Below, piece by piece: positions 9,501 through 20,800 of a DNA stretch of 64,000 bases (within the stretch, counting starts at the first letter, position 1; every line of letters begins with the position of its first letter). This DNA comes from Octopus vulgaris (taxonomy: Eukaryota), in NCBI GenBank assembly GCA_951406725.2, contig OX597826.1:20150001-20214000 (forward strand), given 5' to 3'. The position numbers are program-made.

Positions 9501-12500
9501 AAAAGGTTAACAACAAGAAGGGCATCCAGTTAGAGAGGATTTTTTGAAATAAAGGCAACAATCTCAAATTATTCTGTCAAATGTAATGCTTATTTACTCA
9601 CATTGTTTTAAATTAATCATAGATTATCTTGTAGCTTTCAGATTTTCATGATGTGATTGTTCATTTTCGAAGACATTGTAGGCTAGGTGTGAGAGGCTGT
9701 ATCTGGCTAGTTTGAACATAAAATCATCCCATAAAAAATGTGTTTTTTTTTTGTACTTCTTTTATATTTTCAAAATTAAGATAAACAAAGTTCTTTTTTA
9801 ATATAAAATATACTCTCCTTCATTTTCTACAATGCTCTTCCATCTATCCAAAATTGTCACTTGTCCATGACAAAAAATACTCCTCTAGTACGGTTCTGAC
9901 CTCATCAACAGAATTCATATTTTTTCCGTCCAAATGATTTTGAAGACTGTAGAATAAATGGTAATTGGATGGGGCATCGTTTCCCATTCAAAACTGCTCC
10001 AGCTTTTGGAATGTTATTCTTGCTCTATGTGGCCAAGCATTATCCTGATGGAAGAACACCTTTCGCCTTGAAACCAAAGATGGTCATTTTCCTTCTAGCA
10101 CTGACTTAAGCTGCTCAAGCTGCTCACAGTAGATCCCCTTTGTTATCGTTTGGTTTGGATTTAAAAGTTCAAAGTGAACTAAACCTTTCATATCTCACCA
10201 AACAGATAACAACACCTTACATGGGTGAAGACCTTTTTTAGACTGGGGTGCCGGTGTTTCTCCTTTCCCTACCCACTGTCTTCAGCACCTGACATTTTTA
10301 TAGAGAACCAATTTCTTGTCATCAGTTACTATTCAGTCCCAAAAATGTTCATTCATGAGATGTGACAGCAAAGAAGGGCACACATTCACTCTCTATGTGT
10401 GATTAATCATGAAAAGTTTTTGAGGAACCCATTGACCCAATTTGCTGACTTTTCTGATGGCATGCAGGTGTTGATGAATGGTTGAATGACCAAATCCAAG
10501 CTCTTCCACTCATTCCTCAACAGTTACAATAGGATTTTGTTCCACCAGGGTTTGCAGGATATCCACGTCGAGCTCTACAGATCTTCCAAGATAAGGTTCA
10601 TCTTCAAAACTGTAGTTTCTGGCTCAGAATTTCTGGAACCACCTTTGACACTAACTTACACTTATTTTCTGATCCCCATATACTGCATTAATATTTCTCA
10701 TACTTTCCGTTGCATTGTTGCCTTTATTGAACTCATGAAGCAAAATATGCTGAATATGCCCCTTTGTCACTTCCATTTATGCCAAATATGTTCCTTTGTC
10801 ACTTCCATTATAGCTTGGCAAAAATAACTGTTGAAATCAAACTGCACTCTTCAATACTTGCACTAAGAATAAGAACAAGGTAAAATTTTATAGCAAGTTG
10901 ATGCTGGTAGTTTATTTCATCCCCCTCCAACTTTTAGTTCATATAATTGAAAAAACCCGCATTATTTACAGGATGACTCAATATGTAGAATAATTTAGCC
11001 GTATATGACTGGTTTGAATGCTAAAGGTTTAAACACAGTCATGGACACCACAAGGTTGTTGACCCCTGCTTCAGAAGGGAAAATAAAATGTTCTTTAAAC
11101 ATTTGTTGTTATCAAGGACAACAATAAAATATTGTCCATCATAACTGTTAGTATCTAATAGTGATTTACAATAAAGATAACTGATTGATAAAACTGTTTT
11201 GAGAGCAGAAATTAGACAGCACCACTAATGAGACCTTTAATTTCTTAAACAATAACATAACATTAGACCAAATATTGTTGTGGAAACTACTTTCCCATAA
11301 AAGTAATTCCTGCAAATTATTATTTCCTCTTCTTTTGATGATATTTCTATATGTTCTTCGTGTTTTCTCATCATTCAAACATTGTTTTTCCATTTGTTCT
11401 TTTACAGATATTTATATGTCAGCATTTATTTTGGTTGTCAGGAAATTATTTATTGATAATTATCTTCATTAACCAAAGTGGTTAATGGAATTGTTACTTT
11501 GCTTTCATTGTCCTTGACAACTACAAATATTTAAAGATCATTTTCCCTGCTGAAGCGGAGATAAACAACTTTCTTGTTGCCATGACAGTCTTTAATTATT
11601 ACACCACGGTTACTTTTATTTAGATGGTATTTTATGGCTGGATGCCCTTCCTGTCCCCTTTTGTACCCCCACAGGGATAACATATCTTGCCTGGGACAAC
11701 TGGAACACACACTCGTCCCCCTTTTGATACACACACTTGAAAGCAGCACTGCTATCTCTCCCCCGTTTTCCTCTTCGAATGATGTTTGAAGAATTTGATA
11801 AGGGCTTGGTCAAATAGGAAGGTGCCCGTCTTCAAACCTTTCAGACAGGCCTAATAATAATAATACTCCTTTCTACTAAAGGCACAAGGCCTGAAATGTG
11901 TGGGGAGGGGACTAGTCAATTACATCGACCCCAGTGTTTCACTGGTGCTCAATTTATCAACTCCAAATCGATGAAAGTCAAAGTTGACCTCGGCAGAATT
12001 TGAACTCAGGACATAGCAATAGACGAAATAGCGCTAAGCACTTTGCCCGGCATGCTAATGTTTCTGCCAGCTCACCGCCTTTCTAGTAATGATTATGATA
12101 ATAATAAAATGTTGTTCAAGTCTTTATTTAATTCAGTTACACTTTAACTGGTTCTAGCTAGTAAGTGTGGCCATACTGGAGCACAACAATCACAGTTATC
12201 TCATTAATTACAACAACCTTGTTGTTTTACCTTACTCTGTACATGTTCTTATACGTTTAGATTTATAATATATTTCTTTCTTTCTTTCAGTTTGAATGAG
12301 TTATGATGGAAACCAGCGCCGCTGCCGTATTCAAGGGGCCTGGTCCACCGGCCCCGCCCAGGAGCAGACTGAAACACAGAGATTATGGGCAGGGCCAGCA
12401 GCTTCTCGGCCCTACTACGTTATTCAGAATGTTTCACATGTATGTATAGTTTTTATATTGTTACACACTGAGCAGAGGTTCAAATCACTTGAAAATTTTA

Positions 12501-12880
12501 GCTTTTTTGTTTTTATGTTGTTTCTGATAAATAAATATAAAATCATGCTTAATGAATCAATTGTAATATGTAATTAACATATTTATGTAATTGATTATTA
12601 TATTTATCTAATTATCATCTGTAATATATAATTATTAACTACAATATGTAATATTAATAATTATTTGATTTTAAATCATGTAATAAAAAAACAAGTCAAA
12701 AAATTCATCAACTATTAACATTATTTTTAATTGATTTGTAAATTATGTGACATTAAAATAATTTTTATAGTTTTTAACTGATTTCTTACTGGAAATATAT
12801 TTTAACTCCTACAGATTTGTAATTTCTATTATTTGTTAAATTTTCCAATATTTCTAATGCATTTGTGCTTGTGTGTGTGT

Positions 12881-12927
<47 letters not shown>

Positions 12928-17808: not shown

Positions 17809-17854
<46 letters not shown>

Positions 17855-20800
17855 ACACCTGTACACATACAAACCCTCACATCATTATCTACTGAAATTC
17901 TCCCACTCTCTCTACTCTACTTAATCAAAAAAGGAAAAGACCTCATCACCTTCAAATAGTATCTGGACAAATCTGTAAAGGATAGGAGCCAAGACACCTC
18001 TACCTAGGTACAACTCCCTGAATGGGCCATGATACCACAAAGTATGACTTTAAAATGACCGAACAAATTCTATCAGCTGGTGCCATAAAGTTGTATTGTA
18101 TACAGTGCCCCTGAGCACTATACAATAGGTTAATTACATATTATATATATAAATGGTCTGGGCCAATTTTAGCTGAAACAACATACCTAAGTTAATCTTA
18201 CACACATACATGTGCATACTAAATATGCATATATATATATGTGTGTGTGTGTGTTTATGCATGTATGTACATATGTATACATATATATGTGTGTGTGTGT
18301 GTATACATGCATATATATATATGTGTGTGTGTGTTTATCTATGTGTGTATATATATATATGCATATATATATCATATCTATTTATGTCTGTATGTACGCA
18401 TGTGTGTGTGTATATATATATATTTATATATGTATATATGATCGTGTGTGTGTTGTGGTAGTATGTACTACTATTTCAAAGATAGTAATAATTTATTGTG
18501 GGAATTGGTGATTTCAGGCTCCCACAGTTTCCAGTCATTTTCATCTGAGTTTGGGAATCTGTAGTGAAGATTTGATAAGTCTTTGTTGTATTTACAGGTT
18601 GTAGGTTTGGTTTGACTGTACCTGGATTCCTCGGTGCAGTTTTTCTTTGTTTTTGCTTTCACTGGTTTTTATCTTTTAATGTCGGTAGAATTTGTTTGTG
18701 TGTAGGGGAATGTCTGTTAGTTTTGGACAATAGTTCTGTAAAGAGATGGAACAAGATATGATTGGTCTCTACAATGGCTAATTTGGCTATTAAAAGGAGG
18801 GAAAGGGAGAGGGAGGTGTGTAGAAGAAGAAAAAGGAAGAGAGAGAGAGAACAACCTATTTTGGAAGATGGAATATAGAGAGCAGTAGAATTGTAATTCT
18901 TTTGGCTTAAGTCTTTTTTTTTTGCTTGAAGGTCATTTGGGGTCAGTGAGAATTGTGATAATATACAATGGTAGTAGAATTAGTTGGTTGCCTGGTTGGT
19001 TGGTTGGTTGGTGGGTAAGTTTTGTTGTGATTGAGGTGTATGTTAAATACATTGTGTTGGTCGTTAATTGTGGTCAAAGAATGACTTTAACCCTGCAGCA
19101 TTCAAATTACTCAAGCAAATGTAATGATTATCTGTTCTCATTGATTTAAGTTAATTATACGTTATTGTGTTGTTTCAGACTTTTCATCACAAGATTGTTT
19201 ATTTTTATAATGACATTGCAGGATAGGTGTGAGAGACCAGATCTGACTTGTTTGAATATAGAACAAGTAGAACATTTGGGTTGGATATGGTCGGTTGAAA
19301 TGCTAAAGGTGTGTGTGTGTGTGTGTGTGTATGTGTGTGTGTAACAACATGGGGGCATGATACCATCTTTCAACTCATTAAATTATGTTAAACCATCCAA
19401 CCCCTGCCAGTGTGGAAGGTGGAAATAAAATGAACGCACACACATACAAGATTTTTGTTATTCAGCTATACTCTACCTTGTGTAGTGAGTACGAAATTCT
19501 CCCATGTTTTTAGAACTTGTGAATTGCATCATGGTTTGTACAAGTAATGATGGTGGACATGTTGACTATTAACAATCACAAGAATAAATCTGTTGAAACA
19601 TGAAGTAAATTCTTTCATTGTTTTTCTTTACACAGATTAATTCTACCATTTGTAGAATTAACTTTATATGAATTTAAATTTGCTCAAGTACTTTATGATG
19701 GTTATGCATTATGTGGTGTAGGGTGGGGGTGGTGTGGGGAGAGGCTGTGCTTGTGGTTATTGAAGGTCCACTAAGACTGATGAGATTGATGTGATTAATG
19801 GTTTACTTTGAACACCTTCAGGAAAATATGTGAGCAAGCAGAGAATTATATAGATCTGGATGGGTTCTGGGAAGTGAGGTACTGAGAGGGTGACAAAAGT
19901 GGGGACAGAGTGAGAGAGAGAGAGTAAGAGAGTATGAAAGGAGCTAGTTCAGTGGGACAAAGTAGAGGAGGAAAAGGGAGGCAAAGGAGGATATACTGAT
20001 TGCAATTTGAAGAGCCAGTACCAATTTGAAGAATACTGGAAAATCTGTGAATTAAAAAAAAAGCAAAAAAAAAGCAAAGAAAAACAAAATCCCCTGAAGT
20101 TAGATTAGATCTTTGAAACTATTTCCATCTTTAAAAAAAAACTATACTTTCTCATCTCTTCCAGTCTCCTCTCGGTCTGTGTTATATTTGGAGCTCATTT
20201 AACAGCTGCTGAGTCTCTTCAGTCAAGTACTGGCACCACCATTTCAAGTGATGCATCAATAGAGGTTCCATGCTTGCCTACCATTGCTCTAGATGCAAGT
20301 TCTACACCCCTTGCAGTGGTAGGTAGTAACTTTATGTCTAATTGTGCTTTTATCACCCACTTCATGTTAATGATGGGAGCCCATCAAAGCTGCACAATTG
20401 GCTGCTATCTCCCCCTCCCTCCCCCCTTTCATTTGTAGTTGATTACTCTGCTAACCACTGTAGATTCTGTTAGTACTAATTTCATGTAATACTGCTTATC
20501 CCCCTTCCCTCCACTACCACCACCACCACCACCACATCCTCACCCCCACATTCCAGTTTAGCATTTATTCTTATTTTAGAATATTATTGCATTTCAAGAC
20601 ACAAAATTATCAAAAACACAATTTTATGATTATAAAAAAAAAATCAAAAAATAAAAAAAAAACCCCCTATAAACATTACCATTCTTGCAATTCTGTTTCT
20701 TCTGGCACTTTAATGTCCTGAGCTCAAATCTGACCAGCGGTCAGCTTTTGAGGCAGCAAACTAGCAGAATTGTTTGCTGGACAAAACGTGTAGCAGCATT

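What the first reader, a model, noticed from the sequence alone, without database searches (positions are those of the whole stretch)
12291..20318. Dual-frame exon plus a frame-switching cassette exon give two unrelated N-termini on a DUSP23 phosphatase
Seen: exon 12291-12439 is open in two frames, each preceded by an in-frame stop. Frame A (ATG 12296, weak context, 48 aa) ends in phase 0 and can splice directly to the phase-0 exons at 25924 or 32309 (250 or 206 aa). Frame B (ATG 12303/12306, strong context) ends in phase 2 and reaches the catalytic domain only through the 154-nt exon 20165-20318 (299 aa). When that exon is included, frame A becomes an overlapping uORF that stops at 20210-20212. 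When it is skipped, frame B terminates early. Inference: one splice choice would swap the N-terminus, and hence the localisation, of the enzyme. Frame A could simply be open by chance in a GC-rich exon.
Basis: partly seen in the sequence, partly recalled or inferred. Interest (0 to 1): 0.8.

Follow-up and report, generated by a model that had tools for sequence, protein, structure and literature searches.

The report
Two-frame first exon of octopus DUSP23
The first coding exon of an octopus DUSP23-like phosphatase gene really is open in two frames, but only one frame is conserved in other cephalopods, and the other may be an upstream reading frame open by chance.

Summary
Exon 12291-12439 is open in frame A (ATG 12296, weak context) and in frame B (ATG 12303/12306, strong context). 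Each ATG follows an in-frame TGA. The 154-nt exon 20165-20318 decides which frame reaches the catalytic exons.

Both protein models already exist in public annotation. A 299-aa Octopus protein is exactly the frame-B reading. Octopus sinensis 'isoform X3' (252 aa) uses frame A and skips the 154-nt exon.

Frame B plus the cassette exon is conserved in Argonauta and a cuttlefish. It encodes a conserved hydrophobic signal or anchor segment that frame A lacks.

Frame A was found nowhere except in the X3 model, but these short-query searches have little power. Given the frame-B protein, frame A stays free of stops by chance in 10-26% of simulations. Adding the requirement for an ATG gives about 0.5-1.2%.

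Most likely frame B gives the real product. Frame A is then a 63-codon overlapping upstream ORF, which could yield a soluble isoform only from a skipped transcript that is probably minor. A true N-terminus switch remains possible (about 0.3). This is a new member of a known kind (N-terminal dual-coding regions) and of modest interest.

The parts
12291..12439 (+). First coding exon (Ea, 149 nt), open in two forward frames
   Evidence: frames printed. tblastn of P0001 (frame A) and P0002 (frame B) both land here. No second copy in the window.
12296..12298 (+). Frame-A ATG, weak context (T at -3, A at +4), with in-frame TGA at 12293-95 just upstream
   Evidence: It is the start of P0001.
12303..12308 (+). 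Frame-B ATG ATG. The second has A at -3 and G at +4. In-frame TGA at 12297-99 lies upstream.
   Evidence: It is the start of P0002, and Argonauta P0003 also begins MM.
20165..20318 (+). 154-nt frame-setting exon (Eb). It encodes most of the hydrophobic segment and a conserved Ser/Thr-rich stretch.
   Evidence: Identity to octopus is 37 of 51 residues in Argonauta and 30 of 51 in cuttlefish, with no gaps. Hydropathy.
20210..20212 (+). TGA that ends frame A when Eb is included (48 + 15 = 63-codon overlapping upstream ORF)
25924..26055 (+). Linker exon (Ec, 132 nt, phase 0 at both ends) with a weak polypyrimidine tract. It encodes a poly-Asn run.
25952..25954 (+). TAA that ends frame B if Eb is skipped and Ea joins Ec
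25993..25995 (+). ATG in the main frame (A at -3), a possible downstream start for a protein without the hydrophobic segment
   Evidence: It is a Met in P0001, P0002 and P0003 but is absent in cuttlefish P0005.
32309..32474 (+). First exon of the phosphatase domain (Ed, 166 nt). Frame B entering directly from Ea stops at TAG 32358-60.
36180..36286 (+). Second exon of the phosphatase domain (Ee, 107 nt), holding the Asp of the KDF motif
59251..59454 (+). Catalytic last exon (Ef) with the HC-x5-R loop and stop TAA 59452-54
   Evidence: 100% identical to P0002 residues 233-299.

Best explanation
This is the 5' half of an octopus DUSP23-like dual-specificity phosphatase gene.

The conserved, main reading is frame B. 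It runs from ATG 12303/12306 through exon 20165-20318, then 25924, 32309 and 36180, into a catalytic last exon (59251 in this window). Its N-terminus has about 40 mostly basic residues. These are followed by a conserved hydrophobic segment that straddles the junction of the first two exons, and then by a Ser/Thr/Asn-rich linker. This looks like a signal sequence or membrane anchor (inferred; no predictor was run and the topology is unknown).

The frame-A ATG at 12296 is a weak-context, out-of-frame start 7 nt upstream. On the main mRNA it opens a 63-codon overlapping upstream ORF that ends at 20210-12. At most, this would divert some ribosomes from the phosphatase frame.

If the 154-nt exon is skipped, frame B stops 10 codons later. 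Frame A then becomes the only frame that runs from this exon into the catalytic domain. This is how the annotation pipeline obtained the 252-aa isoform X3.

I judge this frame-A protein to be, at best, a low-level by-product of a minor and largely unproductive transcript. I do not think it is a conserved second isoform.

Shown: the anatomy, both public models, conservation of frame B, and the hydrophobic segment. Inferred: which start is used, how abundant the skipped transcript is and what happens to it, and localisation.
For: Gene identity. The best solved-structure matches are human DUSP23 (2img, 4erc; E 2e-33) over residues 147-290 of P0002, with the P-loop and the Asp of the DF-PP motif aligned. 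Pfam gives only dual-specificity phosphatase families.

Frame B is real and old.
- P0002 (299 aa, Octopus) equals the frame-B reading exon by exon.
- Argonauta P0003 matches 28 of 45 residues in Ea and 37 of 51 in Eb, without gaps.
- Cuttlefish P0005 matches 14 of 24 residues in the 3' part of Ea and 30 of 51 in Eb.
- A hydrophobic 19-aa window of 1.69-2.04 is present in 3 of 3 frame-B proteins.

Frame A is weak.
- Its ATG has T at -3, and two ATGs in better context follow within 10 nt.
- Its only relative among proteins of 85 aa or more in the word-index search is the X3 model itself: 1 of 1 candidates.
- HMMER against 1.84 billion representatives gave 2 hits. One is the X3 model. The other is a repeat protein matched over 29 residues at 41% identity, which I read as chance.
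- The X3 cluster sits on a single contig.
- The open frame is expected 10-26% of the time given frame B.
- Ea is the second least conserved of the five shared exons in frame B (28 of 45 in Argonauta; only Ec is lower at 26 of 44; Ed is 52 of 55 and Ee 35 of 35). This gives no sign of a double constraint.
- Eb has a good acceptor and donor, as a constitutive exon would.

Background rates from the literature.
- More than 50% of non-triplet splice events in C. elegans are sensitive to nonsense-mediated decay (NMD) (PMC13247117, section 7).
- At least a third of human dual-coding regions probably cause NMD, and non-canonical frames mostly give disordered peptides (Goubert et al. preprint, abstract).
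- ORF callers that take the longest ORF mis-annotate unproductive isoforms (TranSuite preprint; I saw only the start of the abstract in the listing).
Against: The full configuration is uncommon by chance. An ATG in frame A, placed just after an in-frame stop, with no stop to the exon end and the right exit phase, arises in about 0.5-1.2% of simulations.

All 9 codons that could have created a frame-A stop avoid T at their third base. The exon's GC3 (0.62) is well above that of the rest of the gene.

A public pipeline did model the skipped isoform. By my recollection of how that pipeline works, this usually means the junction was seen in RNA-seq.

The failure to find frame-A relatives is weak evidence. 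The same kind of search with the frame-B exon peptide also found only the Octopus protein and missed the known Argonauta orthologue. No cephalopod DNA was available to test whether frame A is open elsewhere.
Confidence: 0.5

Rival explanations
1. A regulated choice to include or skip exon 20165-20318 switches between a signal- or anchor-bearing phosphatase (frame B) and a soluble one (frame A). Both are translated and functional, so this is a true N-terminal dual-coding exon.
For: Both models exist in public annotation with exactly these exons. The chance probability of ATG plus open frame plus correct phase is about 0.5-1.2%. The two N-termini differ in the hydrophobic segment. Vertebrate DUSP23 is a soluble cytoplasmic and centrosomal protein of about 150 aa (PMC2893100, abstract; chain lengths), so a soluble form is a plausible working enzyme. 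N-terminal dual-coding regions are a known architecture: 241 of 1406 human cases (Goubert et al., section 'DCR architecture').
Against: I found no orthologue evidence for frame A. The frame-A ATG has the weakest context class, and strong frame-B ATGs 7-10 nt downstream would capture most scanning ribosomes and lead to an early stop. Eb has strong splice sites. Frame A alone is open by chance 10-26% of the time. Ea shows no extra conservation in frame B.
Confidence: 0.3
2. The skipped transcript is real but makes a soluble phosphatase from the in-frame ATG at 25993 in exon 25924-26055, by leaky scanning or by re-initiation after the short frame-B ORF. This would give about 181 aa (23 residues upstream of the phosphatase domain, plus the 158-aa domain). 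Frame A would then be irrelevant.
For: ATG 25993 is in the main frame with A at -3, 39 nt after the frame-B stop at 25952-54. The Met is present in Octopus and Argonauta. Overlapping upstream ORFs that push initiation downstream and change localisation are described in Arabidopsis (Wu et al. preprint, abstract only).
Against: Re-initiation after a 55-codon ORF is usually inefficient (recalled). The Met is absent in the cuttlefish protein. There is no direct evidence.
Confidence: 0.1
3. The skipped junction does not exist in vivo, and isoform X3 is a modelling artefact. The gene then has only frame-B products, and frame A is only an overlapping upstream ORF.
For: The frame-A model occurs in one cluster on one contig only. 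I could see no transcript evidence.
Against: Pipelines of this kind normally need transcript support for alternative junctions (recalled, not checked).
Confidence: 0.1

Closest known systems
N-terminal dual-coding regions produced by non-triplet alternative splicing (human and C. elegans surveys)
   Same: One exon is read in two frames, and the frame is set by a cassette exon whose length is not a multiple of three. The alternative frame is short and has no recognised domain.
   Different: Most described cases are recoded downstream of the splice event and change the C-terminus: 1150 of 1407 human cases cause C-terminal truncation. Here the recoded part is upstream, two start codons 7 nt apart set the frames, and both readings converge on the same catalytic domain. 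Only one frame has conservation evidence here.
CDKN2A p16-INK4a / ARF
   Same: Two unrelated peptides come from the same nucleotides read in two frames, chosen by which upstream sequence is joined on (mentioned in the Tress et al. preprint introduction).
   Different: In CDKN2A different first exons and promoters feed a shared exon, and the two proteins are wholly unrelated. Here the shared exon is the first coding exon and the two proteins share the whole enzyme domain.
Overlapping upstream ORFs (ouORFs)
   Same: An out-of-frame ATG lies just upstream of the main ATG, and its ORF ends inside the main coding sequence (12296 to 20212). Weak context allows leaky scanning. ouORFs have been linked to changes in isoform localisation (Wu et al. 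preprint, abstract).
   Different: In the Arabidopsis cases the second isoform arises by downstream initiation in the main frame. It does not arise by splicing the ouORF itself into the main frame. Translation of this ouORF is untested.
Human DUSP23 / VHZ
   Same: The catalytic domain aligns over about 143 residues with the P-loop and general-acid Asp in place (E 2e-33).
   Different: Human DUSP23 chains are 150-151 aa with no N-terminal extension, and the protein is cytoplasmic and centrosomal (abstract). The cephalopod proteins carry 97-145 extra N-terminal residues, including a hydrophobic segment.

Membership tests
DUSP23/VHZ-type atypical dual-specificity phosphatase | HC-x5-R(S/T) phosphate-binding loop | tested here: met
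   HCLMGRGRTG in exon 59251-59454, aligned to the human DUSP23 loop.
DUSP23/VHZ-type atypical dual-specificity phosphatase | General-acid Asp in the D-F-x-P-P stretch | tested here: met
   KDFSPP in exon 36180-36286 aligns with PDFCPP of 2img_A. That this Asp is the general acid is recalled.
DUSP23/VHZ-type atypical dual-specificity phosphatase | Closest to DUSP23 rather than other phosphatase subfamilies | tested here: met
   The top two of 68 solved-structure matches are DUSP23 at E 2e-33. The next eukaryotic subfamily, CDC14B, is at E 2.6e-12. No phylogeny was made.
DUSP23/VHZ-type atypical dual-specificity phosphatase | Small single-domain protein (about 150 aa) without a targeting extension | tested here: not met
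   The cephalopod proteins are 252-307 aa, with 97-145 residues before the domain.
DUSP23/VHZ-type atypical dual-specificity phosphatase | Phosphatase activity | not testable with these tools
   Needs an enzyme assay.
Alternatively spliced dual-coding region | The same nucleotides are open in two frames over at least 60 nt | tested here: met
   144 nt in frame A and 137 nt in frame B.
Alternatively spliced dual-coding region | Two transcript isoforms, each using one frame | tested here: inconclusive
   Two public protein models use the two frames (P0001 and P0002).
Alternatively spliced dual-coding region | Both frames conserved or constrained | tested here: inconclusive
   Frame B is conserved in 2 of 2 other cephalopod proteins. 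Frame A was found only in the X3 model, with low search power. No cephalopod DNA was available.
Alternatively spliced dual-coding region | Both frames translated | not testable with these tools
   Needs ribosome profiling or proteomics.
Overlapping upstream ORF | ATG upstream of and out of frame with the main ATG, with its stop downstream of the main ATG | tested here: met
   ATG 12296 and stop 20210-12 in the exon-included reading.
Overlapping upstream ORF | Translated and represses the main ORF | not testable with these tools
   Needs a reporter assay or ribosome profiling.
N-terminal signal peptide or signal anchor (frame-B form) | Hydrophobic core near the N-terminus | tested here: met
   Kyte-Doolittle 19-aa maxima of 1.89, 1.69 and 2.04 at about residues 41-64 in 3 of 3 frame-B proteins. 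The customary 1.6 threshold is recalled.
N-terminal signal peptide or signal anchor (frame-B form) | Cleavage-site pattern, topology and actual targeting | tested here: inconclusive
   A conserved T/S-A-A follows the core, which fits the -3/-1 rule as I recall it. The core lies about 40 residues from the start. No dedicated predictor was available. The AlphaFold models were too poor to use (mean pLDDT 35.7 and 38.1).

The most novel reading that the evidence does not exclude
In octopuses an overlapping upstream ORF has been captured as a second, unrelated N-terminus. One choice at a single 154-nt exon would then toggle the same DUSP23-type enzyme between a secretory or membrane-anchored form (frame B) and a soluble form (frame A). 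Both would be translated from start codons 7 nt apart. This would be a young, lineage-specific dual-coded first exon that shows how a new protein N-terminus arises from a uORF.
Probability: 0.3. Interest if true: 0.55.

Novelty: new member of a known kind. Interest (0 to 1): 0.3.

Why it matters
If both frames are used, this would be a compact, testable case in which one splice decision together with start-codon choice relocates an enzyme. It would also show a new N-terminus arising from an upstream ORF in a cephalopod, a group whose transcript diversity is mostly discussed in terms of RNA editing.

If only frame B is used, the case shows how longest-ORF annotation of a frame-shifting skipped isoform produces a plausible-looking protein isoform.

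Either way, the conserved feature is of more biological interest. Cephalopod DUSP23-like proteins carry a hydrophobic signal or anchor and a long linker that the vertebrate enzyme lacks.

Tried and rejected
- A word-index search with the frame-B exon peptide found only the Octopus protein: 1 hit among 14 candidates. It therefore served only as a control, showing that short-exon queries miss known orthologues.
- The HMMER hit P0006 to frame A is a 3333-aa repeat protein matched at 38-41% over 29 residues in each repeat. I rejected it as chance.
- I tried to bound frame-A divergence from the Argonauta frame-B protein. Only 3 of 44 frame-A codons are forced to differ, so the test is uninformative.
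- The ESM Atlas look-up of the frame-B N-terminus gave no usable hit.
- AlphaFold2 of P0002 (3-sequence alignment) and of P0001 (single sequence) gave mean pLDDT 35.7 and 38.1. This is too low to say anything about helices or disorder, so I did not run fold search.
- Pfam finds nothing in the peptides of exons Ea (either frame), Eb or Ec: 0 families for 4 of 4 peptides.
- blastn of Ea, Eb and Ec with 100-nt flanks against the window gave only self-hits, so none is a repeat-derived exon.
- I found no GC- or CpG-rich island upstream that would mark a 5' UTR exon. The upstream non-coding exon implied by the acceptor at 12290 was not located.
- A literature search for DUSP23 plus octopus returned 0 papers.
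No cephalopod DNA other than this window could be examined. I did not ask for paper supplements.

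
Full report
What is in the sequence. The window carries one clear gene on the + strand. I read six exons directly and confirmed them by tblastn of database proteins:
- Ea, 12291-12439
- Eb, 20165-20318
- Ec, 25924-26055
- Ed, 32309-32474
- Ee, 36180-36286
- Ef, 59251-59454

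Ea begins at a strong acceptor, so at least one non-coding exon must lie upstream. I could not locate it.

Inside Ea, frame A starts at ATG 12296. This ATG has T at -3 and A at +4, and TGA 12293-95 lies immediately before it. Frame A runs 48 codons to the donor in phase 0. Frame B starts at ATG 12303 or 12306. The second of these has A at -3 and G at +4, and TGA 12297-99 lies before them. Frame B leaves two bases at the donor.

Eb is 154 nt, so it shifts the frame by one. With Eb included, frame B runs on and frame A stops at 20210-12. Without Eb, frame B stops at 25952-54 or at 32358-60, and frame A runs into the phosphatase frame.

What the gene is. Exon-by-exon searches and Pfam place the product among dual-specificity phosphatases. 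The best solved-structure relatives are human DUSP23 (E 2e-33), with the HC-x5-R loop and the Asp of the DF-PP stretch aligned. Whole-protein comparisons used proteins returned by the database.

Both readings are already public models. A search with the Ed peptide returned five proteins (sequences).
- P0002 (299 aa, named for Octopus vulgaris, cluster on two contigs) is exactly frame B + Eb + Ec + Ed + Ee + Ef.
- P0001 (252 aa, 'dual specificity protein phosphatase 23 isoform X3', Octopus sinensis, cluster on one contig) is frame A + Ec + Ed + Ee. It skips Eb.
- P0001 ends in a different catalytic exon that is only 50% identical to Ef and is not in this window.

I found no paper containing both DUSP23 and octopus (0 papers).

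Frame B is the conserved frame. The Argonauta hians protein (P0003) and the cuttlefish protein (P0005) both carry the frame-B N-terminus.
- In Ea, Argonauta matches 28 of 45 residues. The cuttlefish matches 14 of 24 in the 3' part and 1 of 21 in the first 21 residues.
- In Eb, they match 37 of 51 and 30 of 51 residues, without gaps.

All three frame-B proteins have a hydrophobic segment at about residues 41-64, with Kyte-Doolittle 19-aa maxima of 1.69-2.04. It is encoded across the Ea/Eb junction and mostly by Eb. A conserved T/S-A-A and a Ser/Thr-rich stretch follow it. The flank before the segment has 6 basic and 2 acidic residues. The flank after it has 0 basic and 4 acidic residues. This looks like a signal sequence or a type-II-like anchor. 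That is an inference from composition, and no dedicated predictor was available. The frame-A N-terminus has no hydrophobic segment (maximum -0.03).

Is frame A more than chance? I held the frame-B protein fixed and resampled synonymous codons 100,000 times per model. Frame A stays free of stops in these fractions:
- 16% with uniform codon choice
- 10% with the gene's own codon usage from the other five exons
- 26% with the exon's own third-base composition
- 11% when the codons actually used are permuted within each amino acid

All 9 codons that could have created a frame-A stop avoid a third-base T. The frame-B protein allows no ATG in frame A, so the ATG has to lie in the 12-nt leader. With a random leader, the whole configuration arises in 0.5-1.2% of simulations. 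This is uncommon for one exon but is expected many times across a genome, and the case was selected because it looked unusual.

Searches for relatives of the frame-A peptide found only the X3 model (1 of 1 candidates; 2 hits, the other a repeat protein I rejected). These negatives carry little weight. The same kind of search with the frame-B peptide also missed the known Argonauta orthologue. No cephalopod DNA other than this window could be reached. An attempt to bound frame-A divergence from the Argonauta protein was uninformative (3 of 44 codons forced to differ).

Points that lower my estimate for a working frame-A isoform:
- The frame-A ATG is in the weakest context class, and two better ATGs follow within 10 nt. 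This is the textbook -3/+4 rule, applied here by assumption to molluscs. On a skipped mRNA, most ribosomes should therefore read frame B for 10 more codons and stop far upstream of three exon junctions. This is the classic trigger for NMD where that rule applies (recalled).
- Eb has a good acceptor and donor. The weak acceptor belongs to Ec.
- In frame B, Ea is less conserved than Eb, Ed or Ee. It shows none of the extra constraint reported for regions selected in two frames (wobble conservation in PMC13247117, section 13).

Published base rates point the same way.
- More than half of non-triplet splice events in C. elegans are NMD-sensitive, against 54 dual-coding events (PMC13247117, section 7).
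- Human dual-coding regions are described as a common by-product of noisy splicing that is sporadically co-opted (Goubert et al. preprint, abstract).
- More than a third of human coding genes carry annotated dual-coding exons, yet only 537 regions have peptide or conservation support (Tress et al. preprint, abstract).

Verdict. The most likely picture (0.5) is a conserved frame-B phosphatase that carries a signal or anchor. The frame-A ATG then acts as a 63-codon overlapping upstream ORF on the main mRNA. The 252-aa frame-A protein would be an annotation-level product of a minor, largely unproductive skipped transcript. Smaller alternatives are that a skipped transcript uses the in-frame ATG at 25993 (0.1), or that the skip is not real (0.1).

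The architecture belongs to a known class. N-terminal dual-coding regions make up 241 of 1406 human cases (Goubert et al., section 'DCR architecture'). It differs from the common case in that the recoded part lies upstream of the splice event and both readings converge on the same domain.

What stayed unchecked:
- transcript and translation evidence
- orthologous DNA from other cephalopods
- the location of the alternative catalytic exon
- the closed collections (metagenome contigs, viral contigs)
- paper supplements, which I did not request

Noticed in passing
window 59251-59454, and outside the window: The gene appears to have two alternative catalytic last exons. Ef (HCLMGRGRTG...) is used by Octopus P0002 and the cuttlefish protein. 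A second exon (HCAHGKGRTG...) is used by O. sinensis X3 and the Argonauta protein. It is only 50% and 43% identical to Ef and is not in this window. The two versions of the active-site half seem conserved across cephalopods. AATAAA matches lie about 130-160 nt after the Ef stop.
   Followed up: partly
window 51050-53560 (-): An uninterrupted 836-aa ORF with a reverse-transcriptase domain (RVT_1, E 1e-31) lies in the 23-kb intron between Ee and Ef. It is a retroelement copy that looks intact.
   Followed up: partly
window about 54200-59000: A long field of AT-rich simple repeats (GC 0.12-0.27 in 2-kb windows; TA- and ATT-type runs visible as poly-Y/I ORFs) ends about 250 nt before the catalytic exon Ef.
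   Followed up: no
window 9900-10109 (+) and 42306-42542 (-): Two nearly identical ORF fragments lie in opposite orientation and flank most of the gene. They look like remnants of one transposon family. Pfam found nothing in the neighbouring 79-aa ORF, so my recollection that it resembles a mariner-type transposase is unconfirmed.
   Followed up: partly
window 25993-26020 (exon Ec): A run of eight Asn codons in the linker exon is invariant over seven positions in the octopus, Argonauta and cuttlefish proteins. This is unusual conservation for a homopolymer in an otherwise variable linker.
   Followed up: no
window 25951-25956 (exon Ec): A consensus donor GTAAGT sits inside Ec, 27 nt after its acceptor. 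Using it would give an in-frame 9-codon mini-exon. The frame-B premature stop TAA 25952-54 lies within it. This is only a consensus match.
   Followed up: no
window 12429-12431 (Met 43 of the frame-B protein): A Met lies just before the hydrophobic core in octopus (residue 43). The cuttlefish protein has Mets at the aligned position and four residues earlier, and Argonauta has one four residues earlier. Initiation there would give a textbook short signal peptide. The conserved basic stretch upstream argues that the longer N-terminus is coding.
   Followed up: no
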